DNA from: a virus | Lineage: Duplodnaviria > Heunggongvirae > Uroviricota > Caudoviricetes | Reading direction: 5' to 3' (one strand) | Virus record (IMG/VR): IMGVR_UViG_2627853771_000003 | Length of the DNA: 48,551 bases | Shown here: one piece after another, positions 9,531-37,306 of the stretch | How the letters are laid out: every line of letters starts with the position of its first letter | Numbering within the stretch: position 1 is the stretch's first letter | The notes under the pieces: generated by a model | What the model was told of the DNA's origin: nothing | The model's input: the letters and a program-made list of their open reading frames with translations, nothing else | The model's database searches: none | Translations under genes and position numbers: made by a program

Positions 9531-10556
9531 ATGGATACTTTTCATAATATTTTGCTTGAGCACATAGACAGCCTTTTAAAAGAGAGACTTGATTTATCTG
9601 GTGACGCTGATATCGAAAAAGAAATTAATAACCTAATTCCCAAAATAGCCATTGTCGTTAAAAAATCTCTTATTGGCTCGGCCAATGCAATGCTTAGAGA
9701 ACATCGTTCTCTTTGTGATGAATTTGTTGAGAGAAATATTTCAAGATGGGCAGAGGCTTTTGATTTGCTCGAAACACTTATAGTGATATGCACGGAGTCC
9801 GGTGAAGAGTTCAATCGTTCTTATAGACCACAAGCTGCCTCTGAAGAGGATGTGGTTTTTGATTTAGTCGTTCGGCATCACGCAAGAGCTTGCCACATCG
9901 CCAACGAAATTTTGTGTCTCTTAAAGAATGGATTTGCAGATGCTGCCCAAGCGAGATGGCGAGCACTTCATGAGGTAGCGGCCACAGCTATGTTTATAGC
10001 AAAGCATGGAAAAGAGTGTGCTGAGCGCTTTTACTACCATGAAGTGGTTGATTCATATACTGGAATGTTGGAACACAAAAAGTACGAGCACCGGTTAGAA
10101 GCAAAAGGTCCAACTATTGAAGAAATAGCTGAGTGTAAAGTTCAATTTGATCTATTAATAAAAAAATATGGCAAAAAATATGCAGATAATTATGGCTGGG
10201 CATCTTATATTTTCCCTAACCATAATAAAGTGGGGTTTGGAGCTATTGAGAAAGATGTTCAGTTAGAACACATGCGCCCTTATTATAAGTGGGCGAGTCA
10301 GAATGTACACACCGGTTCCAAGGCAATGAGAAATAGGCTTGGTCTCTGTGAAACTGGTGATGATATATTATTGGTCGGGCAAAGTGATTCAGGAATGGCT
10401 GAACCAGCCCATGCTACTGCTATTAGTTTGATGCAGATTACTGTGACACTTTTATTTTTAAAACCAACCATTGATCATGCCGTCATTTCAAAAATAATAC
10501 AGGATTATTCTGATGAGATTGGAAATGTATTTCTTAAAATTGATAAGGGTAATTAA
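9531..10556 (+). CDS. orphan protein of unknown function in an AT-rich island (candidate accessory/defence gene)
   Basis: 341 aa from the first ATG (the track ORF begins at a TTG at 9519). AT-rich coding sequence flanked by AT-rich non-coding DNA; no family recognised; contains RHHARACH (R-x6-H). Confidence 0.6.
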   Translation: MDTFHNILLEHIDSLLKERLDLSGDADIEKEINNLIPKIAIVVKKSLIGSANAMLREHRSLCDEFVERNISRWAEAFDLLETLIVICTESGEEFNRSYRPQAASEEDVVFDLVVRHHARACHIANEILCLLKNGFADAAQARWRALHEVAATAMFIAKHGKECAERFYYHEVVDSYTGMLEHKKYEHRLEAKGPTIEEIAECKVQFDLLIKKYGKKYADNYGWASYIFPNHNKVGFGAIEKDVQLEHMRPYYKWASQNVHTGSKAMRNRLGLCETGDDILLVGQSDSGMAEPAHATAISLMQITVTLLFLKPTIDHAVISKIIQDYSDEIGNVFLKIDKGN

Positions 10557-27584: not shown

Positions 27585-29059
27585 TGGCAATTCTTGATGA
27601 TGTGATTGGCGTTTTTTCACCAGGATGGAAAGCGGCAAGGCTGCGTTCCCGTGCGGTGATCCAGGCTTATGAGGCCGTAAAAACGACGCGGACACACAAA
27701 GCCCGACGGGAGAACCGAACTGCCGACCAGTTAAGCCAGTACGGGGCCGTGTCGTTACGTGAGCAGGCCCGTTACCTTGATAACAACCACGATCTGGTTA
27801 TTGGTGTATTTGACAAGCTGGAAGAACGGGTGGTGGGGAAAAACGGGATTATTGTCGAGCCACATCCGGTATTACGCAATGGGGCCATTGCCCGTGATCT
27901 GGCAGCGGAGATTCGCACCCGATGGAGTGAATGGTCTGTCAGCCCGGAAGTCACCGGGCAGTTTACCCGTCCGATGCTGGAACGTCTGATGCTTCGTACC
28001 TGGCTGCGCGATGGTGAGGTGTTTGCCCAGATGGTTTCCGGGCGCATAAACAGCCTGACGCCTTCTGCCGGTGTTCATTTCTGGCTGGAGGCACTCGAGC
28101 CGGACTTTATTCCCATGACCAGTGATGAGAGCAACAGGCTGAATCAGGGCGTGTTTGTTGATGGCTGGGGGCGTCCCGAAAAATATCTGGTGTATAAAAG
28201 TCGTCCCGTATCCGGACGGCAGATGGAAACCAAAGAAGTGGATGCAGAGCGAATGCTGCATCTTAAATTTGTTCGCCGTCTGCACCAGATGCGCGGGACG
28301 TCTTTGTTGTCCGGTGTGCTGATCCGCCTCAGTGCCCTGAAAGAGTATGAAGATTCTGAGCTGACTGCAGCAAGGATCGCCGCTGCTCTGGGGATGTACA
28401 TCCGGAAAGGCGACGGGCAGAGCTATGAACCGGATGGTAATGGCAGCAAGGATAAGGAACGCGAGCTTACCATTCAGCCAGGCATTATTTACGACGATCT
28501 GAAACCCGGCGAAGAAATCGGAATGGTGAAGTCGGATCGTCCCAATCCTAACCTTGAAACTTTTCGTAATGGTCAGTTGCGTGCCGTGGCGGCGGGCAGT
28601 CGTCTGAGTTTTTCCAGTACGGCACGCAACTATAACGGCACTTACAGCGCCCAGCGTCAGGAGCTGGTTGAATCCACTGATGGCTACCTGATCCTGCAGG
28701 ACTGGTTTATTGGTGCCGTCACCCGCCCGATGTATCGTGCCTGGCTGAAACAGGCTGTGGCATCCGGTGTTATCAGGCTACCCCGCGATCTTGACCGTTC
28801 TTCACTGTATACCGCGGTGTATTCCGGACCGGTGATGCCGTGGATTGACCCTGTTAAGGAGGCTGAGGCCTGGAAAATTCAGATTCGTGGTGGAGCGGCG
28901 ACAGAATCAGACTGGGTACGTGCAGGTGGTCGTAATCCGGATGATGTCAAACGTCGGCGCAAGGCCGAAATTGATGAAAACCGCAAGCTGGATCTGGTAT
29001 TTGATACCGATCCGGCCAGTGATAAAGGAGGCAGCAGTGCCGCAACGAAACGACAGTAG
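27584..29059 (+). CDS. B: portal protein (lambda B-like)
   Basis: 491 aa; ATG overlaps the W stop (TGATGG). Confidence 0.85.
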   Translation: MAILDDVIGVFSPGWKAARLRSRAVIQAYEAVKTTRTHKARRENRTADQLSQYGAVSLREQARYLDNNHDLVIGVFDKLEERVVGKNGIIVEPHPVLRNGAIARDLAAEIRTRWSEWSVSPEVTGQFTRPMLERLMLRTWLRDGEVFAQMVSGRINSLTPSAGVHFWLEALEPDFIPMTSDESNRLNQGVFVDGWGRPEKYLVYKSRPVSGRQMETKEVDAERMLHLKFVRRLHQMRGTSLLSGVLIRLSALKEYEDSELTAARIAAALGMYIRKGDGQSYEPDGNGSKDKERELTIQPGIIYDDLKPGEEIGMVKSDRPNPNLETFRNGQLRAVAAGSRLSFSSTARNYNGTYSAQRQELVESTDGYLILQDWFIGAVTRPMYRAWLKQAVASGVIRLPRDLDRSSLYTAVYSGPVMPWIDPVKEAEAWKIQIRGGAATESDWVRAGGRNPDDVKRRRKAEIDENRKLDLVFDTDPASDKGGSSAATKRQ

Positions 29060-31064
29060 CCGCAGCACACCGACGACCAGTCCGAAGAATAATTCCTGGT
29101 TCAGGATGCAGGCTGGTCACCAGAGTGACGCGGATATTTATATTTATGACGAGATTGGTTTCTGGGGTGTTACAGCGAAGCAGTTTATCAGTGATCTGAA
29201 TGCACTGGGCGATATCACCCACATTAATCTCCATATCAATTCACCGGGTGGCGATGTCTTTGAAGGCATCGCCATTTTTAATGCACTGAAAACACATGGT
29301 GCGTCCATTACCGTTTATGTCGACGGTGTGGCGGCGTCAATGGCGTCGGTCATTGCGATGGTGGGAAACCCGGTCATTATGCCGGAAAACACCTTCATGA
29401 TGATTCATAAACCATTTGGCTTTACGGGCGGTGATGCGGAGGACATGCGCACCTATGCCGACCTGCTCGATAAGGTTGAGGCGGTTCTGTTACCCGCTTA
29501 TGCACAGAAAACCGGGAAAACCACCGATGAAATTGCTGCCATGCTGGCGGATGAGACCTGGATGTCCGGTGCCGAATGTCTGGCACATGGATTTGCTGAT
29601 CAGGTGACGCCAGCCGTTAAGGCAATGGCATGTATTCAGTCAAAACGTACAGAGGAATTTAAAAAGATGCCGGAATCCATTCGAAACATGATTACTCCGC
29701 CACGCAACAGTGCTCCACGCGTACAGGATGATGAACCTGCAGCCTCCCGGACGCCAGTGCAGGCAGCAGCACCCGTGGTGGATGAAAACAGTATCCGTGC
29801 GCAGGTACTGGCAGAGCAAAAAGCGCGTGTAAACGGTATTAATGATCTGTTTGCCATGTTTGGCGGGCGTTATCAGACGCTGCAGGCTCAGTGTCTTGCC
29901 GATCCTGAATGTTCGCTGGAGCAGGCCCGCGAAAAGCTGTTGAACGAGATGGGGCGCGAGTCCACGCCATCCAATAAAAATACACCGGCTCATATTTATG
30001 CCGGTAACGGTAATTTTGTGGGGGACGGGATCCGCCAGGCGCTGATGGCGCGTGCCGGATTTGAAAAAACCGAACGTGATAATGTCTACAACGGGATGAC
30101 CCTGCGTGAATATGCCCGTATGTCACTGACTGAACGGGGTATTGGGGTTTCCAGTTATAACCCGATGCAGATGGTCGGTGCGGCGTTCACACACAGTACG
30201 TCTGACTTCGGTAATATTCTGCTGGATGTTGCGAACAAAGCCATTCTGCAGGGCTGGGAAGATGCCCCTGAAACCTATGAACAGTGGACGCGGAAAGGTC
30301 AGTTGTCTGATTTTAAAATTGCCCATCGTGTGGGTATGGGGGGCTTCAGTGCTCTGCGTCAGGTGCGTGAAGGGGCGGAATATAAATACGTCACCACCGG
30401 AGATAAACAGGCCACTATTGCACTGGCGACCTATGGCGAGCTGTTCAGTATCACCCGTCAGGCCATTATCAATGATGATCTGAATATGCTGACCGATGTC
30501 CCGATGAAGCTGGGCCGTGCGGCGAAATCCACTATTGCCGATCTGGTTTATGCCATTCTGACGTCTAACCCGAAAATCTCCACAGATAATGTAAGTCTGT
30601 TCGATAAAGCGAAACATGCAAACGTACTGGAGAGCGCTGCAATGGACGTGGCATCGCTGGATAAAGCCCGCCAGTTGATGCGCGTTCAGAAAGAGGGGGA
30701 GCGTCATCTGAATATTCGTCCTGCGTTCGTACTGGTACCGACGGCGATGGAGTCTGTTGCTAACCAGGTCATTCGCTCCTCAAGTGTCAAGGGGGCTGAC
30801 ATTAACGCCGGTATTATTAACCCGGTGAAAGATTTTGCGACCGTTATTGCAGAGCCTCGTCTTGATGATAACAGCCAGACCACCTTCTACCTGGCTGCGT
30901 CAAAAGGCTCCGATACGATTGAAGTGGCTTATCTCAACGGTGTGGATACGCCATATATTGATCAGATGGAGGGCTTCAGTGTGGATGGCGTGACAACGAA
31001 AGTGCGTATTGACGCCGGTGTCGCGCCAGTTGATCACCGCGGTCTGGTGAAATGTACGGCGTAA
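29037..31064 (+). CDS. ClpP-family prohead protease fused to HK97-fold major capsid protein
   Basis: GTG at 29037 after AAAGGAGG; N-terminal ClpP-like region (INSPGGDVFEGIAIFNALK...VDGVAASMASVIAMVG), then a long capsid-type C-terminal domain. Confidence 0.8.
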   Translation: MPQRNDSSRSTPTTSPKNNSWFRMQAGHQSDADIYIYDEIGFWGVTAKQFISDLNALGDITHINLHINSPGGDVFEGIAIFNALKTHGASITVYVDGVAASMASVIAMVGNPVIMPENTFMMIHKPFGFTGGDAEDMRTYADLLDKVEAVLLPAYAQKTGKTTDEIAAMLADETWMSGAECLAHGFADQVTPAVKAMACIQSKRTEEFKKMPESIRNMITPPRNSAPRVQDDEPAASRTPVQAAAPVVDENSIRAQVLAEQKARVNGINDLFAMFGGRYQTLQAQCLADPECSLEQAREKLLNEMGRESTPSNKNTPAHIYAGNGNFVGDGIRQALMARAGFEKTERDNVYNGMTLREYARMSLTERGIGVSSYNPMQMVGAAFTHSTSDFGNILLDVANKAILQGWEDAPETYEQWTRKGQLSDFKIAHRVGMGGFSALRQVREGAEYKYVTTGDKQATIALATYGELFSITRQAIINDDLNMLTDVPMKLGRAAKSTIADLVYAILTSNPKISTDNVSLFDKAKHANVLESAAMDVASLDKARQLMRVQKEGERHLNIRPAFVLVPTAMESVANQVIRSSSVKGADINAGIINPVKDFATVIAEPRLDDNSQTTFYLAASKGSDTIEVAYLNGVDTPYIDQMEGFSVDGVTTKVRIDAGVAPVDHRGLVKCTA

Positions 31065-32740: not shown

Positions 32741-33484
32741 ATGACCACACCAAATCCACTGGCAAAAACGAAAGGTGCGGGAACGACGTTCTGGATGTAC
32801 ACCGGCAAGGGCGATGCGTTTGCGAACCCTTTATCGGACACTGACTGGCTGCGTCTTGCGATGGTGAAGGATCTGCAGCCTGGCGAAATGACCGCTGATG
32901 CAGAAGATGACACTTATCTCGATGATGAAGATGCAGACTGGAAAACGACAACCCAGGGGCAGAAATCCGTCGGTGATACTTCGGCGACGCTGGCCTGGCG
33001 TCCGGGTGACAGCGGGCAGAAAAAACTGGTTCAGTTGTTCGACTCCGGTGAAGTCTGCGCGTTTCGTATCAAATATCCCAACGGTACTGTTGATGTTTTC
33101 CGTGGCTGGCTGAGTTCACTGGGTAAAACCATTGCCTCAAAAGACGTGATGACCCGCACAGTGAAAATCAGCGGTGTGGGGCGTCCGTATCTGGCAGAAG
33201 AAGGCACTGAAACCGTGAGCGTTACCGGGCTGACGGTGGCACCGGCATCTGCCAGTGTAAAAGTGGGAGCAACCACCACGCTGACCTTTACAGTAAAACC
33301 TGACGGAGCCAGTGACAAAGCGATCAGTGTGCATTCGACAGATCCACAGACTGCCACGGTGACCCTGAACGGGCTTGTGGCCACGGTGAAAGGCGTGAAG
33401 CAGGGCAGTGTCAGCATTGTGGGCATGACCGCTGACGGGAATTTTGTGGCTGTGGCTGCGGTGACTGTCAGCGCAGCAGGTTAA
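32741..33484 (+). CDS. V: major tail protein V with C-terminal Ig-like domain
   Basis: SD AAGGAGG; Ig-like C-terminal segment (VSVTGLTVAPASASVKVGATTTLTFTVKPDGASD). Confidence 0.85.
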   Translation: MTTPNPLAKTKGAGTTFWMYTGKGDAFANPLSDTDWLRLAMVKDLQPGEMTADAEDDTYLDDEDADWKTTTQGQKSVGDTSATLAWRPGDSGQKKLVQLFDSGEVCAFRIKYPNGTVDVFRGWLSSLGKTIASKDVMTRTVKISGVGRPYLAEEGTETVSVTGLTVAPASASVKVGATTTLTFTVKPDGASDKAISVHSTDPQTATVTLNGLVATVKGVKQGSVSIVGMTADGNFVAVAAVTVSAAG

Positions 33485-33504: not shown

Positions 33505-33528
33505 GCCCCGGTTATTCGGGGCTTTTTT
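33505..33528 (+). terminator. rho-independent terminator after V
   Basis: GCCCCG-GTTATT-CGGGGC hairpin followed by TTTTTT. Confidence 0.6.
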
Positions 33529-33541
33529 ACAGGTGGAGAAC

Positions 33542-33931
33542 ATGATGTTTCTGAAACAGGACACGTTTAATTATGAAAAACAGTCCGTGGTGCTCAGTGA
33601 GCTGTCCGGGCTGCAGAGAATTGAATATCTGGCGTTTGTTCAGCAGCGAACGGCAAAGTTTGATGCCGAAGAGGGAGAACTGCCGGAGGCTGAACGACAG
33701 ATTGCTTTTCTGCGGATGGGGATGGATATCAATGCCTGGCTGGTTTCCCGCTCACTGTGGAATGCGGAACAGTCTCAGGATGTTGAGACGCTTTGCGCAT
33801 CCGTTATTACAACATGGTCGTATGATGCCCTGGGAGCGGGGGCGGAGATGGTTCTGTCGCTGAGCGGTATGGGAGCCATTGAGAATGCCGGGGATTTGGA
33901 GCATGAGGTGCTGACGCCGGAAAAGTCCTGA
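33542..33931 (+). CDS. G: tail assembly chaperone G
   Basis: MMFLKQDTFNYEKQSVVLSELSGLQRIEYLAF...; SD GGTGGAG. Confidence 0.8.
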   Translation: MMFLKQDTFNYEKQSVVLSELSGLQRIEYLAFVQQRTAKFDAEEGELPEAERQIAFLRMGMDINAWLVSRSLWNAEQSQDVETLCASVITTWSYDALGAGAEMVLSLSGMGAIENAGDLEHEVLTPEKS

Positions 33932-33939
33932 CGCGGGAA

Positions 33940-34269
33940 ATGCAGTTTGTCATGCGGCTTGCCCGGGAGTTCCGGCGGGCAGACTGGCGGCGGATGCTGT
34001 CGGAAATGTCGGCCACTGAGCTTGGTGAATGGGGCGATTATTTCCGGATGCAGAGCTTCAGTGATGTGTGGATGGATGCGCAGTTTGCCTCGCTGAAGGC
34101 ATTGATCGTGAGAATGGTGTCCGGTAGCAGTGATGCTGCGGTGGCTGATTTCAGCCTTTTACCGGAAGAGAACGGGATACCGGAGCGAACGGACGAAGAA
34201 CTGATGCATCTTGGGGAAGGTATTTCCGGAGGTGTGCGTTATGGACCAGATAGCCAACCTGGTCATTGA
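33940..34269 (+). CDS. T: tail assembly protein T segment, expressed as a G-T fusion by -1 frameshift
   Basis: ORF in the -1 frame relative to G, open from the slippery region GGAAAAG (33919-33925) just before the G stop. Confidence 0.7.
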   Translation: MQFVMRLAREFRRADWRRMLSEMSATELGEWGDYFRMQSFSDVWMDAQFASLKALIVRMVSGSSDAAVADFSLLPEENGIPERTDEELMHLGEGISGGVRYGPDSQPGH

Positions 34270-37200
34270 TTTGGGGATTGATGCGGCAGAGTTTAAAAAT
34301 GAAATTCCCCGTATCAAAAACCTTCTGAATGGTGCAGCCAGCGATGCAGAACGGTCTTCTGCCCGTATGCAGCGTTTTATGGAGCGTCAGACTCAGGCCG
34401 CCCGGCAGACAACGCAGGCGGCTTCTTCGGCTGCAACAGCCGCATCCGTCCATGCGCAGACGGTGGAGAAGAACGCACAGGCTCATGAACGCATGGCCCG
34501 CGAGGTGGAGAAAACCCGCCAGCGCATGGAGGCACTGAGCCAGAAAATGCGCGAGGAACAGGCGCAGGCCATGGCTCTGGCGGAGGCTCAGGATAAAGCG
34601 GCTGCCGCGTTTTATCGTCAGATTGACAGTGTAAAACAGGCCAGTGCGGGGCTGCAGGAATTACAGCGTATTCAGCAGCAGATCCGACAGGCCAGAAACA
34701 GTGGCGGGATTGGTCAGCAGGATTATCTGGCGCTGATTTCTGAGGTTACGGCGAAAACCCGTGTTCTTACACAGGCTGAGGAAGAGGCTACCCGACAGAA
34801 AGTGGCGTTTATCCGTCAGCTTAAAGAGCAGGCAACCCGCCAGAATCTTTCTTCTTCTGAGTTGCTTCGTGCTAAGGCTGCCCAGCTGGGGGTAAGCAGT
34901 GCTGCAGAAGTGTATATCCGCAAAATGGAGCAGGCAGGAAAAGCAACGCATTCGCTGGGTCTGAAAAGTGCAGCGGCCCGTCAGGAGATAGGCGTTCTGA
35001 TAGGTGAACTGGCCCGCGGCAATTTAGGTGCGCTGAGGGGATCCGGAATAACGCTGGCTAACCGTGCCGGATGGATAGACACATTGATGTCACCGAAAGG
35101 CATGATGCTTGGCGGGGTTATTGGCGGTATTGCCGCGGCTGTCTATGGTCTGGGTAAAGCCTGGTATGACGGTCAGAAGGAGGGGGAAGAATTTAACCGC
35201 CAGCTGTCGCTGACGGGGCATTATGCCGGAGTCACTGCCGGGCAGCTGTGGACGCTCAGTCGTGCTATTTCCGGGAATGGTATCACGCAACATGCTGCAG
35301 CCGGTGCGCTGGCTCAGGTGGTGGGGAGTGGTGCATTTCGTGGAAACGATATCGGTATGGTGGCGAGAGCTGCCGCACAGATGGAGCGATCGGTTGGCCA
35401 GTCGGTCAGCGATACCATAAATCAGTTTAAGCGGCTGAAGGATGATCCTGTAAATGCCGCGAAGGCTCTGGACAATGAGCTGCATTTTCTTACTGCCACT
35501 CAGCTTGAGCAGATACGCGTCCTTGGGGAACAGGGGCGGTCCAGTGATGCGGCACGGATAGCCATGTCTGCACTGGCAGAGGAAACCGGTCGGCGTACTG
35601 CGGATATTGATAATAACCTCAATGCGCTGGGCAGTACGCTGAAGTATCTGTCTGATTTATGGAGTCGTTTCTGGGATGCGGCCATGAATATTGGTCGTGA
35701 AGACTCGCTGGATGAACAGATTTCCGCTTTACAGGAGAAAGTGTCGCGGGCGAAAAGACTCCCCTGGACGGCATCATCTTCTCAGGTTGAGTACGATCAG
35801 CAGCGTCTTAACGAGCTTCAGGAGAAAAAACGCCAGAAGGATTTGCAGGATGCAAAAGAGCAGGCAGAGCGGAATTATCAGGAGCAACAGAAACGCCGTA
35901 ATGCTGAAAATGCTGCACTGAACCGGATGAATGAAACGGAAGCAGCACGACATCAGCGTGAAATTGCGCGTATTAATGCCATGCAGTACGCCGATCAGGC
36001 TGTCAGGGATGCGGCGATACAACGTGAAAATGAACGTTACGAGAAAGCCCTGGCATCCGGTAAGAAAAAAACACGCGAACCCCGTAATGATGAGGCCACC
36101 CGGTTATTGCTGCAGTACAGTCAGCAACAGGCACAGGTGGAAGGACAGATTGCTGCTGCCAGACAGTCAGCAGGCATTGCCACGGAAAGGATGACAGAAG
36201 CGCATAAACAGCTTCTGGCTCTGCAGCAGCGCATCAGCGACCTGGACGGGAAAAAACTGACGGCAGATGAAAAGAGTGTGCTGGCCCGTAAAGATGAACT
36301 GATTCAGGCACTGACGCTGCTGGATGTAAAACAGCAGGAGCTTCAGAAACAGACGGCACTCAACGAGCTGAAGAAAAAAACAATTCAGCTGACCAGTCAA
36401 CTGGCTGAAGAAGAGCGCGCTCAGCGTCAGCAACATGACCTGGATATCGCCACGGTGGGTATGGGTGATCAGCAGCGGCAGCGATATCAGGTACAACTGA
36501 GTCTTCGCCAGAAATACCAGCAACAGCTGGAGCAGTTGAGGCGGGATAGTGAGCAGAAAGGAACATATAACACGGATGACTACAGAAAGGCCGAGCAGGC
36601 GCTGACGGAGAGCCTGAACCGACAACTGAATGAGAATCGCCGTTACTGGCAACAGCTTGAAGTTGTGCAGGGTAACTGGAAAAACGGAGTCCTGCGTGCA
36701 TTTCAGGATTTTACCGTGGATGCAGATAATACGGCAGGAACAGCAGAACAGGTGTTCTCGTCAGCCTTCAGCAACATGGGAAATGGCCTGGCAACTTTTG
36801 TCACTACCGGCAAACTCAATTTCAAATCCTTCACCTCTTCTGTGCTGTCAGATATGGCGAAAATCCTGGCGCAGGCAACCATGATGAAATCGATAAAAGG
36901 GATTGGCAGTGTACTGGGATTTGATCTCAGCAGCCTTTCCCTGAATGCCAATGGGGGGATTTATCAGTCTGCTGATTTGAGCCGTTACAGTGGCACGGTG
37001 GTTAACCGTCCGACGTTTTTTGCTTTTGCAAAAGGCGCGGGTGTGATGGGGGAAGCGGGACCTGAAGCCATTCTGCCACTGCGTCGTGGTGCTGACGGTA
37101 AGCTGGGGGTTGTGGCGGATATTGGTGGTTCAGGTATGGCGATGTTTGCCCCGCAGTACAACATCGAGATCAATAACGATGGCACGAACGGGCAGATAGG

Positions 37201-37306
37201 TCCGGCTGCCCTGAAGGTGGTTTATGACCTTGGGAAAAAAGCGGCAGCGGACTTTATGCAACAGCAGGCCCGTGATGGTGGTCGGTTAAGTGGAGCATAT
37301 CGGTAA
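34241..37306 (+). CDS. H: tail tape measure protein H
   Basis: 1021 aa, coiled-coil rich; SD GGAGG. Confidence 0.9.
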   Translation: MDQIANLVIDLGIDAAEFKNEIPRIKNLLNGAASDAERSSARMQRFMERQTQAARQTTQAASSAATAASVHAQTVEKNAQAHERMAREVEKTRQRMEALSQKMREEQAQAMALAEAQDKAAAAFYRQIDSVKQASAGLQELQRIQQQIRQARNSGGIGQQDYLALISEVTAKTRVLTQAEEEATRQKVAFIRQLKEQATRQNLSSSELLRAKAAQLGVSSAAEVYIRKMEQAGKATHSLGLKSAAARQEIGVLIGELARGNLGALRGSGITLANRAGWIDTLMSPKGMMLGGVIGGIAAAVYGLGKAWYDGQKEGEEFNRQLSLTGHYAGVTAGQLWTLSRAISGNGITQHAAAGALAQVVGSGAFRGNDIGMVARAAAQMERSVGQSVSDTINQFKRLKDDPVNAAKALDNELHFLTATQLEQIRVLGEQGRSSDAARIAMSALAEETGRRTADIDNNLNALGSTLKYLSDLWSRFWDAAMNIGREDSLDEQISALQEKVSRAKRLPWTASSSQVEYDQQRLNELQEKKRQKDLQDAKEQAERNYQEQQKRRNAENAALNRMNETEAARHQREIARINAMQYADQAVRDAAIQRENERYEKALASGKKKTREPRNDEATRLLLQYSQQQAQVEGQIAAARQSAGIATERMTEAHKQLLALQQRISDLDGKKLTADEKSVLARKDELIQALTLLDVKQQELQKQTALNELKKKTIQLTSQLAEEERAQRQQHDLDIATVGMGDQQRQRYQVQLSLRQKYQQQLEQLRRDSEQKGTYNTDDYRKAEQALTESLNRQLNENRRYWQQLEVVQGNWKNGVLRAFQDFTVDADNTAGTAEQVFSSAFSNMGNGLATFVTTGKLNFKSFTSSVLSDMAKILAQATMMKSIKGIGSVLGFDLSSLSLNANGGIYQSADLSRYSGTVVNRPTFFAFAKGAGVMGEAGPEAILPLRRGADGKLGVVADIGGSGMAMFAPQYNIEINNDGTNGQIGPAALKVVYDLGKKAAADFMQQQARDGGRLSGAYR

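What the first reader, a model, noticed from the sequence alone, without database searches (positions are those of the whole stretch)
33900..33945. G-T programmed -1 frameshift on a non-canonical slippery heptamer
T is open in the -1 frame from just before the G stop, as in lambda, but the slip site reads GGAAAAG rather than the lambda GGGAAAG. If used, P-site re-pairing would be near-cognate, which should change the G:G-T ratio.
Basis: partly seen in the sequence, partly recalled or inferred. Interest (0 to 1): 0.4.

Follow-up and report, generated by a model that had tools for sequence, protein, structure and literature searches.

The report
Phage tail chaperone G-T frameshift site
This is the ordinary lambda-type "G/GT" tail-assembly frameshift of a very common E. 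coli prophage; its GGAAAAG slip site looks odd next to lambda's GGGAAAG but is the usual form in this gene family and is already annotated as such in phage N15.

Summary
G (33542-33931, 129 aa, Pfam Phage_TAC_2) is overlapped by a -1-frame ORF open from 33907 to 34269 (Pfam Phage_tail_T). It lies between the major tail gene V and the tape-measure gene H. The overlap is only 25 nt, and its one shift-prone sequence is G_GAA_AAG at 33919-33925, one codon before the G stop.

Comparison supports a programmed -1 frameshift giving a 242-aa GT fusion. In 20 lineages, a heptamer of the form G_GNA_AAR (A_AAA_AAG in one) sits exactly 11 codons before the conserved T motif LAREFxRPDWRxML. The G tail just upstream varies freely. 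GGAAAAG is the commonest form: 12 of 20 nucleotide lineages, and Glu-Lys in 38-39 of 51 protein representatives at 50% identity. Lambda's GGGAAAG is in the minority.

The N15 GenBank record already annotates GGAAAAG as the slippery sequence, and Gifsy-2 is annotated as a G+G' frameshift hybrid. P-site re-pairing is near-cognate (a G·U pair at the middle position). In vitro work calls this heptamer "less slippery". The efficiency here, and so the G:GT ratio, is untested.

I found no convincing downstream structure. An upstream SD-like GAGGUG is a possible stimulator. The ATG at 33940, which databases use as an independent T start, is specific to this lineage and has no usable SD. Verdict: real, ordinary, already known in kind.

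The parts
32741..33484 (+). Major tail protein gene V (context, upstream neighbour)
   Evidence: Pfam Phage_TTP_12 1.5e-66 plus Big_2. It corresponds to the mEp460_010 major tail protein.
33505..33528 (+). Intrinsic-terminator-like hairpin plus T run between V and G (context)
   Evidence: Consensus scan: 7-bp stem with 6 GC pairs, then TTTTTT. A terminator is annotated at the same place in mEp460, Ayreon and N15.
33542..33931 (+). Gene G, tail assembly chaperone, 129 aa plus TGA; the 0-frame product
   Evidence: Pfam PF06894 Phage_TAC_2 2.9e-40. SD GGTGGAGA lies upstream. 33-56% identical to lambda, N15, phi80 and Gifsy-2 G.
33904..33906 (+). TGA in the -1 frame; the T frame is open only from 33907, which confines any shift to 33907-33931
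   Evidence: Direct reading and script.
33905..33910 (+). SD-like GAGGUG, 8-10 nt 5' of the heptamer; a candidate upstream stimulator (inferred, not shown)
   Evidence: Anti-SD duplex -9.2 kcal/mol, in the top 8% of windows within G. It falls in the 6-17 nt range used for such stimulators in PMC4066793. GAGG is kept in 90/90 close relatives and in Gifsy-2, L286, L106 and L287, but is absent in phi80, N15 and lambda.
33919..33925 (+). Slip heptamer G_GAA_AAG (P-site GAA Glu, A-site AAG Lys)
   Evidence: Direct reading. Invariant in 82 close loci. The same heptamer sits at the homologous position in Gifsy-2, phi80/mEp043, N15 and the Proteus, Providencia, Klebsiella and Citrobacter lineages. N15 annotates it as the slippery sequence.
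33929..33931 (+). G stop codon TGA, one codon after the heptamer
33925..34269 (+). T segment read in the -1 frame after the shift (114 codons plus TGA). Predicted GT fusion = G residues 1-128 + 114 aa = 242 aa
   Evidence: Pfam PF06223 Phage_tail_T 5.1e-15. Fusion sequence. Colinear with lambda gpGT through the junction.
33940..33942 (+). Lineage-specific ATG in the T frame, used by GenBank/RefSeq records as a stand-alone T start
   Evidence: Annotated as the T start in mEp460, Tritos, PhiR47_1, 569R4, HannyBb and by PGAP. The position is Leu or Arg in 19 other lineages, and the first T-frame ATG is at codon +23 in 12 of 20. The best anti-SD pairing is -4.3 kcal/mol at 0-nt spacing.
34241..37306 (+). 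Tape measure protein gene H (context, downstream neighbour; overlaps the T end by 29 nt)
   Evidence: Pfam TMP_2 2.7e-49 and Tape_meas_lam_C 3.2e-22. Strong SD GGAGGTG lies 5-6 nt upstream.

Best explanation
Most ribosomes translating G stop at TGA 33929 and make the 129-aa chaperone G. A minority slip back one nucleotide on G_GAA_AAG (33919-33925). tRNA-Lys re-pairs from AAG to AAA, which is cognate. tRNA-Glu re-pairs from GAA to GGA, which keeps the first and third pairs and puts a G·U at the middle position. Translation then continues with GUC in the -1 frame for 114 codons, giving a 242-aa GT fusion with the junction ...LTPEK|VLTREMQF.... By homology with lambda, the G part binds the tape measure protein H and the T part recruits the tail tube protein V. 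The frameshift frequency therefore sets the G:GT ratio needed for tail assembly. Shown here: the ORF layout, the homology, and conservation of the site and its spacing. Inferred: that the shift happens, that both tRNAs slip together, the protein functions, and that the efficiency is low (at most a few per cent) and possibly helped by the upstream SD-like GAGGUG.
For: V-G-T-H gene order with Pfam matches for all four genes. The overlap is only 25 nt and holds a single shift-prone site. The predicted fusion aligns with lambda gpGT in one HSP, with PEK|V opposite AGK|V. Anchoring 20 lineages (clusters at >=80% fusion identity) on the heptamer, without gaps, puts LAREFxRPDWRxML 11 codons downstream in every one. 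The heptamer columns are conserved (GG-AAA-R) while the preceding G tail is variable. Position 1 equals position 2 in 20 of 20 lineages, across seven different preceding codons (CCG, GCG, CTG, TTG, AAG, ATG, TCA). This fits a need for first-base re-pairing of the P-site tRNA. In 12 of 20 lineages the first ATG in the T frame lies after the conserved motif, so T cannot start on its own there. In some lineages the overlap shrinks to 16-22 nt and still contains the heptamer. N15 annotates GGAAAAG as the 'slippery sequence for -1 translational frameshift', and Gifsy-2, which shares the identical ACGCCGGAAAAGTCCTGA, is annotated as a G+G' frameshift hybrid. Among 51 full-length representatives at 50% identity, 38-39 end in Glu-Lys followed by 0, 1, 5 or (in one case) 8 residues. 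-1 shifting at NNA_AAG sites without a canonical first triplet is established (cdd, IS1222), and A_AAG is the most shift-prone tetramer in E. coli.
Against: There is no direct evidence of a GT protein for this phage or, in the papers I could reach, for any GGAAAAG-type phage. In a reconstituted E. coli system, AUG GAA AAG gave mainly the 0-frame product and is described as unfavourable and less slippery. A_AAG alone without a stimulator is barely above background (about 0.15%) in vivo. No significant downstream structure was found. The same heptamer occurs in slip phase in other long ORFs of the window, so it is not strongly avoided. That argues for low intrinsic shiftiness. This lineage has an ATG at 33940, 8 nt after the G stop, which could allow some independent T synthesis by reinitiation.
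Confidence: 0.87

Rival explanations
1. The frameshift product is the same, but only one tRNA slips. tRNA-Lys moves from AAG to AAA on the A_AAG tetramer, in the A site or in the P site after translocation. The upstream GAA-decoding tRNA does not re-pair; it only releases its third-position A, as in the NNA_AAG 'hexanucleotide' mode.
For: The second-position mismatch of tRNA-Glu on GGA is called unfavourable. NNA_AAG sites with no P-site re-pairing potential (A_CGA_AAG, G_CGA_AAG) are used in nature. A_AAG is the best tetramer. Family variants G_GCA_AAA and G_GUA_AAG have an outright middle mismatch. In several lineages the Lys codon abuts the stop codon (AAG UAG, AAA UAG), which would favour P-site slippage during slow termination.
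Against: Heptamer position 1 equals position 2 in 20 of 20 lineages despite seven different preceding codons. That is unexplained if the upstream tRNA need not re-pair at all. From memory, not checked here: tRNA-Glu carries mnm5s2U34 and so belongs to the restricted-wobble class that limited hexamer-type shifting in Licznar et al. 2003. That would make GAA a poor choice for a pure hexamer mechanism, yet GAA is the preferred codon.
Confidence: 0.25
2. There is no programmed frameshift. T is made as a separate 109-aa protein from ATG 33940, for example by termination-reinitiation after the G stop 8 nt upstream, as the database annotations imply.
For: An ATG is present and invariant in 82 close relatives. 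It lies 8 nt after the G stop. Every GenBank/RefSeq record of close relatives that I examined annotates T as a stand-alone ORF, most from this ATG and Ayreon from a later start.
Against: The ATG is Leu (CTG/CTT) or Arg in the other 19 lineages, and in 12 of them no ATG occurs before the conserved motif. SD pairing is -4.3 kcal/mol with 0-nt spacing, against -6.4 to -12.6 for neighbouring genes. T-frame coding conservation starts right at the heptamer, upstream of the ATG (VLTRE, VLNNE, ALTRE). In lambda the T domain acts only as part of GT, which tethers V to H through the G domain. The annotations come from automatic ORF calling.
Confidence: 0.06
3. The frame is changed by transcriptional slippage of RNA polymerase on the A run, not by the ribosome.
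For: The site contains an A run, and one relative (VT1-Sakai) has six A's.
Against: The run here is only four A's. From general knowledge, productive transcriptional slippage needs runs of about 7 or more. The conserved features (position 1 = position 2, the A_AAR phase relative to the 0 frame) are codon-phase features expected for ribosomal slippage.
Confidence: 0.01

Closest known systems
Bacteriophage lambda G/GT programmed -1 frameshift (Levin, Hendrix & Casjens 1993; Xu, Hendrix & Duda 2004, 2013, 2014, as cited in PMC5009743)
   Same: V-G-T-H gene order. The same Pfam families for G and T. The fusion is colinear with lambda gpGT and the slip sites are aligned. The A-site codon is AAG re-pairing to AAA. 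The slip site is near the 3' end of G. No evident downstream stimulator.
   Different: The heptamer is G_GAA_AAG rather than G_GGA_AAG, so the P-site tRNA is tRNA-Glu with a middle G·U after the shift instead of a fully cognate tRNA-Gly. The G stop is 1 codon after the site rather than 5. The overlap is 25 nt rather than 64 nt. GT is 242 aa rather than 279 aa. An SD-like GAGGUG lies upstream here and not in lambda.
Phage N15 genes 14/15 (NC_001901; misc_feature 'slippery sequence for -1 translational frameshift')
   Same: The identical heptamer GGAAAAG at the homologous position, in the same phase and at the same distance from the T motif.
   Different: N15 clusters separately from the window at the 80% fusion-identity threshold, and its relative phi80 is about 34% identical in G. 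The preceding codon is GCG rather than CCG. The G stop is 5 codons downstream. There is no upstream SD-like element.
Gifsy-2 STM1039 / STM1041.1n (annotated 'part of G+G' frameshift hybrid protein')
   Same: The closest diverged relative (56% G identity). It shares the identical 18 nt ACGCCGGAAAAGTCCTGA and has an SD-like GAGGA at the same spacing.
   Different: There is no ATG in the T frame before codon +23, so no independent-start ambiguity.
NNA_AAG 'hexanucleotide' and A_AAG -1 frameshift sites (B. subtilis cdd A_CGA_AAG; IS1222 G_CGA_AAG; Licznar et al. 2003)
   Same: tRNA-Lys shifts from AAG to AAA after a codon ending in A, and the first triplet is not a run of identical bases.
   Different: Here position 1 equals position 2, so two of three P-site pairs plus a G·U survive the shift. 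These phage sites lack the strong pseudoknot used in the IS3 test system.
E. coli dnaX A_AAA_AAG
   Same: A-site AAG/tRNA-Lys slippage in E. coli, and an upstream SD-like element at a comparable distance.
   Different: dnaX has a fully cognate heptamer and a strong downstream stem-loop, shifts at roughly 50%, and its shift product is the shorter protein.

Membership tests
Lambda-like tail assembly chaperone G/GT with conserved -1 frameshift | Two overlapping ORFs located between the major tail protein gene and the tape measure gene | tested here: met
   V 32741-33484, G 33542-33931, T frame 33907-34269, H 34241-37306.
Lambda-like tail assembly chaperone G/GT with conserved -1 frameshift | Sequence homology to lambda G and T | tested here: met
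   PF06894 2.9e-40 and PF06223 5.1e-15. The fusion is 34% identical to lambda gpGT, E 1e-42.
Lambda-like tail assembly chaperone G/GT with conserved -1 frameshift | The downstream ORF is in the -1 frame and a slippery sequence in the correct phase lies inside the overlap | tested here: met
   G_GAA_AAG at 33919-33925 in a 25-nt overlap, conserved at the homologous position in 20 lineages as G_GNA_AAR or A_AAA_AAG.
Lambda-like tail assembly chaperone G/GT with conserved -1 frameshift | The downstream ORF lacks its own translation start | tested here: inconclusive
   This lineage has an ATG at 33940, but without a usable SD. The ATG is absent in 19 other lineages, and in 12 of 20 the first ATG comes after the conserved motif.
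Lambda-like tail assembly chaperone G/GT with conserved -1 frameshift | A GT fusion protein is actually produced at a low fixed ratio and is required for tail assembly | not testable with these tools
   This needs a Western blot, mass spectrometry, a reporter assay or genetics.
Canonical X_XXY_YYZ tandem-slippage heptamer | The first three bases are identical (cognate P-site re-pairing apart from wobble) | tested here: not met
   The bases are GGA. The -1 P-site codon GGA faces the tRNA-Glu anticodon with a G·U at the middle position (stated for this heptamer).
Canonical X_XXY_YYZ tandem-slippage heptamer | Bases 4-6 are identical, so the A-site tRNA re-pairs cognately | tested here: met
   AAA, then G. 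tRNA-Lys reads both AAG and AAA.
Z_ZZN tetramer / NNA_AAG hexamer -1 sites | A_AAG in the 0-frame phase | tested here: met
   GA A_AAG, with AAG as a 0-frame codon at 33923-33925.
Stimulated -1 PRF signals (dnaX / IS3 type) | A stable downstream hairpin or pseudoknot 5-9 nt 3' of the heptamer | tested here: not met
   MFE z-scores are -1.09 (90 nt) and -0.57 (181 nt). The RNAalifold consensus is -13.4 kcal/mol with a covariation term of +0.64, and its only conserved helix lies more than 30 nt downstream inside the conserved coding motif.
Stimulated -1 PRF signals (dnaX / IS3 type) | An SD-like sequence 6-17 nt upstream of the heptamer | tested here: inconclusive
   GAGGUG at 33905-33910, -9.2 kcal/mol. 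It is present in some lineages only and overlaps a conserved Glu codon, so selection for it at the RNA level is not shown.

The most novel reading that the evidence does not exclude
G_GAA_AAG, not lambda's G_GGA_AAG, is the standard slip site of the lambda-like G/T family: about 75% of 50%-identity clusters end in Glu-Lys. The family consensus is X_XNA_AAR, where only the first-position pair of the P-site tRNA (position 1 = position 2) and the A-site Lys re-pairing are conserved. Natural selection would then routinely use a heptamer that in vitro work treats as an unfavourable control. This implies either that a second-position G·U in the P site is well tolerated in vivo, or that these phages need a lower GT:G ratio than lambda or compensate with SD-like elements or a nearby stop codon. 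If this has not been systematically reported, it offers a natural allelic series (N = G, A, U, C) for testing P-site re-pairing rules.
Probability: 0.2. Interest if true: 0.35.

Novelty: already known. Interest (0 to 1): 0.15.

Why it matters
The scientific value is small. This is one more instance of the conserved tail-assembly-chaperone frameshift, using a heptamer already annotated in N15.

The practical value is for annotation. This G-T module is in 1846 of 5426 complete E. coli genomes. All eight close-relative phage records and the PGAP record that I inspected list T as a stand-alone ORF rather than a ribosomal-slippage join. The 242-aa GT protein is therefore missing from protein databases for this lineage.

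There is also a modest mechanistic point. The family-wide preference for G_GAA_AAG contrasts with its 'less slippery' behaviour in vitro.

Tried and rejected
- **Downstream stimulatory structure:** I folded 33926-34015 and 33880-34060. The z-scores were -1.09 and -0.57. RNAalifold on 8 diverged homologues gave no covariation support. Rejected as unsupported.
- **Other slip sites in the overlap:** The 25-nt window GGTGCTGACGCCGGAAAAGTCCTGA has no other X_XXY_YYZ, NNA_AAR or Z_ZZN site in phase.
- **Literature search for the heptamer:** 'GGAAAAG' plus 'frameshift' returned only unrelated papers among the 20 listed. 'G GAA AAG' found the EF-G paper, which uses it as a poor-slippage control.
- **Licznar et al. 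2003 (NNA_AAG series):** The paper is not held. Its content is cited only through the Atkins review or from memory, and is marked as such.
- **PRFect supplement:** It contains no heptamer list. Its 'twofour' motif name may correspond to GGAAAA, but I could not verify this.
- **Papers on N15 or phi80 frameshifting:** The search found nothing useful.
- **PDB sequence search with the fusion:** No hits.
- **Independent T start:** Considered and judged unlikely as the sole route.
- **Transcriptional slippage:** Rejected because the run is only four A's.
- **Large homologous-protein search:** Skipped. The representative search already gave a census with limited redundancy.

Full report
**What is in the sequence**

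The window around 33900-33945 reads, in the G frame...GAG GTG CTG ACG CCG GAA AAG TCC TGA. G runs from ATG 33542, preceded by the SD GGTGGAGA, to the stop at 33929-33931, giving 129 aa.

The -1 frame has a TGA at 33904-33906 and is then open from 33907 to 34267-34269, which is 120 codons. The two frames therefore overlap by only 25 nt. The heptamer GGAAAAG occupies 33919-33925 in the phase G_GAA_AAG. No other shift-prone motif lies in the overlap.

Pfam assigns G to PF06894 (lambda tail assembly chaperone G, 2.9e-40) and the -1 ORF to PF06223 (minor tail protein T, 5.1e-15). The upstream gene is a lambda-type tail tube protein with a Big_2 domain. The downstream gene is a lambda-type tape measure protein.

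**Where the window comes from**

The G-T segment is 97.5-99.4% identical to the E. coli lambdoid phages mEp460, cdtI, Ayreon, Tritos, phi458 and others. It occurs in 1846 of 5426 complete E. coli genomes.

Every record I inspected annotates T as a separate ORF, most starting at the ATG that corresponds to 33940. None has a ribosomal-slippage join. This covers mEp460, Ayreon, Tritos, PhiR47_1, 569R4, HannyBb and a PGAP-annotated chromosome.

**Is it more than chance?**

The heptamer alone is not informative. It occurs 16 times in the window, against 7.9 expected. It is in slip phase in several other long ORFs, where a shift would add only 6-38 codons. What makes 33919 special is its context and its conservation.

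All 82 close relatives fetched at that point keep CCGGAAAAGTCCTGA. For a wider view I collected 308 loci from phage records, IMG/VR contigs and bacterial genomes. I located the G stop and the T frame in each, and clustered the predicted fusions at 80% identity. This gave 20 full-length lineages.

In all 20 lineages, a gapless alignment anchored on the heptamer places the conserved T motif LAREFxRPDWRxML exactly 11 codons downstream. The C-terminal tail of G immediately upstream is highly variable.

| Heptamer | Lineages | Examples |
|---|---|---|
| GGAAAAG | 12 | the window, Gifsy-2, phi80/mEp043, N15; Klebsiella, Citrobacter, Proteus and Providencia prophages |
| GGGAAAG | 2 | lambda, Stx2a phage |
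| GGGAAAA | 1 | L110 |
| GGCAAAA | 3 | L287, L100, L101 |
| GGTAAAG | 1 | L106 (Pantoea) |
| AAAAAAG | 1 | VT1-Sakai |

Position 1 equals position 2 in all 20 lineages, although the preceding codon varies: CCG, GCG, CTG, TTG, AAG, ATG, TCA. In some lineages the overlap is only 16-22 nt and still contains the heptamer.

A census with limited redundancy came from a full HMMER scan of 1.84 billion representatives at 50% identity. Of 51 full-length G homologues:
- 38-39 end in Glu-Lys followed by 0, 1, 5 or (in one case) 8 residues;
- 4 end in Gly-Lys (the lambda type);
- 4 end in Ala-Lys;
- 3 end in Lys-Lys;
- 1 ends in Val-Lys.

The 'non-canonical' site is therefore the family norm, and lambda is the minority.

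**Fusion versus independent T**

The predicted fusion is G residues 1-128 through Lys, then 114 residues from the -1 frame, 242 aa in all. It aligns with lambda gpGT in a single HSP (34% identity, E 1e-42), with ...LTPEK|VLTREMQF opposite ...VSAGK|VFDGELSF.

The ATG at 33940 is specific to the window's lineage. The other 19 lineages have Leu or Arg there. In 12 of 20 lineages the first ATG in the T frame is at codon +23, after the conserved motif, so T cannot be initiated independently there.

Upstream of 33940, the best anti-SD pairing is -4.3 kcal/mol and it directly abuts the ATG. The values for G, H and V are -6.4, -10.8 and -12.6 kcal/mol. I cannot exclude some termination-reinitiation at this ATG, which lies 8 nt after the G stop. 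It is unlikely to be the main or only route.

**Mechanism**

After a -1 shift, tRNA-Lys moves from AAG to AAA, which is cognate. E. coli has a single tRNA-Lys for both codons. tRNA-Glu (anticodon U*UC) moves from GAA to GGA. This keeps C36:G and U34:A and puts U35 opposite G, a near-cognate G·U at the middle position.

Peng et al. 2019 describe this exact sequence, AUG GAA AAG, as 'unfavorable for slippage' because of the second-position mismatch. [quoted passage not shown] On the other hand:
- -1 shifting at NNA_AAG sites without a run of identical bases is established (B. subtilis cdd A_CGA_AAG, IS1222 G_CGA_AAG), and its efficiency depends on the tRNA decoding the first codon (PMC5009743).
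- A_AAG is the most shift-prone tetramer in E. coli. It reaches up to 5.6% with a strong pseudoknot, but only about 0.15% without one (PMC4066793).
- In dnaX variants, a single A·U to G·U change in the P site costs only about 5 kJ/mol, and the favourable G to A change at the A-site wobble partly offsets it (PMC6787027).

The invariant 'position 1 = position 2' in the family favours tandem slippage with first-base re-pairing of the P-site tRNA over pure single-tRNA slippage. The G_GCA_AAA and G_GUA_AAG variants, however, show that the middle pair is dispensable. I give tandem slippage about 3:1 over single-tRNA slippage. Both yield the same protein.

The functional roles are inferred from lambda: G and the G part of GT bind the tape measure protein, T binds the tail tube protein, and the G:GT ratio is about 30:1.

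**Stimulators**

No downstream structure stands out. The MFE z-scores are -1.09 and -0.57. The alignment fold has a positive covariation term (that is, no support), and its only conserved helix lies more than 30 nt away, inside the conserved coding motif.

Upstream, GAGGUG at 33905-33910 pairs with the anti-SD at -9.2 kcal/mol, which is in the top 8% of windows within G. It lies 8-10 nt from the heptamer, inside the 6-17 nt range used for SD-like stimulators by Sharma et al.. Comparable elements occur in Gifsy-2, L286, L106 and L287, but not in phi80, N15 or lambda. The element also overlaps a conserved Glu codon. It is a candidate stimulator only.

**Comparison with what is known, and novelty**

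The N15 GenBank record carries a misc_feature 'slippery sequence for -1 translational frameshift' at 10027-10033. That sequence is GGAAAAG, at the homologous position. Gifsy-2 shares the identical 18 nt ACGCCGGAAAAGTCCTGA and is annotated as a G+G' frameshift hybrid. The conserved tail-chaperone frameshift is textbook material.

This is therefore an already known kind of feature with an already recorded heptamer. What is missing is only the annotation for this phage lineage and any measurement of efficiency.

A useful practical detail is that trypsin cuts exactly at the junction (…PEK|VLTR…), so a trans-frame peptide should be sought with Glu-C (KVLTRE) or chymotrypsin.

**Verdict**

The finding is a real feature and was correctly interpreted. 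It is ordinary: interest 0.15.

The most novel reading not excluded is that G_GAA_AAG / X_XNA_AAR is the true family rule, and so a natural test bed for P-site re-pairing requirements. That would be of modest interest. It is probably already implicit in Xu, Hendrix & Duda 2004, which I could not read.

Noticed in passing
window 33505-33528 (+): An intrinsic-terminator-like hairpin (GCCCCGG/TCGGGGC, then T6) sits between the major tail gene V and G. The same place is annotated as a terminator in mEp460, Ayreon and N15. It may attenuate transcription into G-T-H relative to V.
   Followed up: partly
window, whole (e.g. 12453, 14476, 18053, 22481, 41944 on +): GGAAAAG occurs 16 times against 7.9±2.5 expected, and none of 100 shuffles reached 16. 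Several copies are in slip phase inside other long ORFs, with only short (6-38 codon) -1 extensions. The heptamer is not avoided in coding sequence, which suggests low intrinsic shiftiness.
   Followed up: partly
window 33940-34269; relatives JQ182728, MF807953, OV696610, PV340566, ON470598, PP925841, NZ_CP031134: All inspected GenBank/RefSeq records of this phage lineage, including PGAP, annotate T as a stand-alone ORF (Ayreon from an even later start) with no ribosomal-slippage join. The module is present in 1846 of 5426 complete E. coli genomes, so the 242-aa GT protein is systematically missing from annotations.
   Followed up: yes
window 33905-33910; loci L083, L286, L106, L287, L101: An SD-like GAGG(U/A/C) lies 8-10 nt upstream of the slip site in several lineages with non-canonical heptamers. 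The three lineages with canonical GGGAAAR (lambda, Stx2a, L110) have none. The sample is small and phylogenetically confounded, and the element overlaps a conserved Glu codon.
   Followed up: partly
loci L085, L102-L105, L110, L111, L100, L101, L287, L302: In the Proteus, Providencia, Kluyvera and Ewingella-type relatives the slip-site Lys codon is followed directly by the G stop (AAG TAG or AAA TAG). Termination and frameshifting would then compete on the same ribosome state. This differs from lambda, where the stop is 5 codons later.
   Followed up: no
window 33904-33906 and the homologous place in many relatives: A -1-frame TGA, formed by NNT GAR codons around a conserved Glu, often lies about 13-16 nt upstream of the heptamer. 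It keeps the T frame closed until just before the slip site, so the overlaps are only 16-43 nt in most lineages.
   Followed up: no
window 34241-34269: The T frame ends at TGA 34267-34269, 29 nt after the start of the tape measure gene H (ATG 34241, strong SD GGAGGTG). The overlap is in a different frame.
   Followed up: no
window 28845-31064 (+): A long ORF combines a ClpP-like protease/scaffold region with the capsid region. It matches the 'putative protease/scaffold protein' annotated in mEp460 and cdtI.
   Followed up: no
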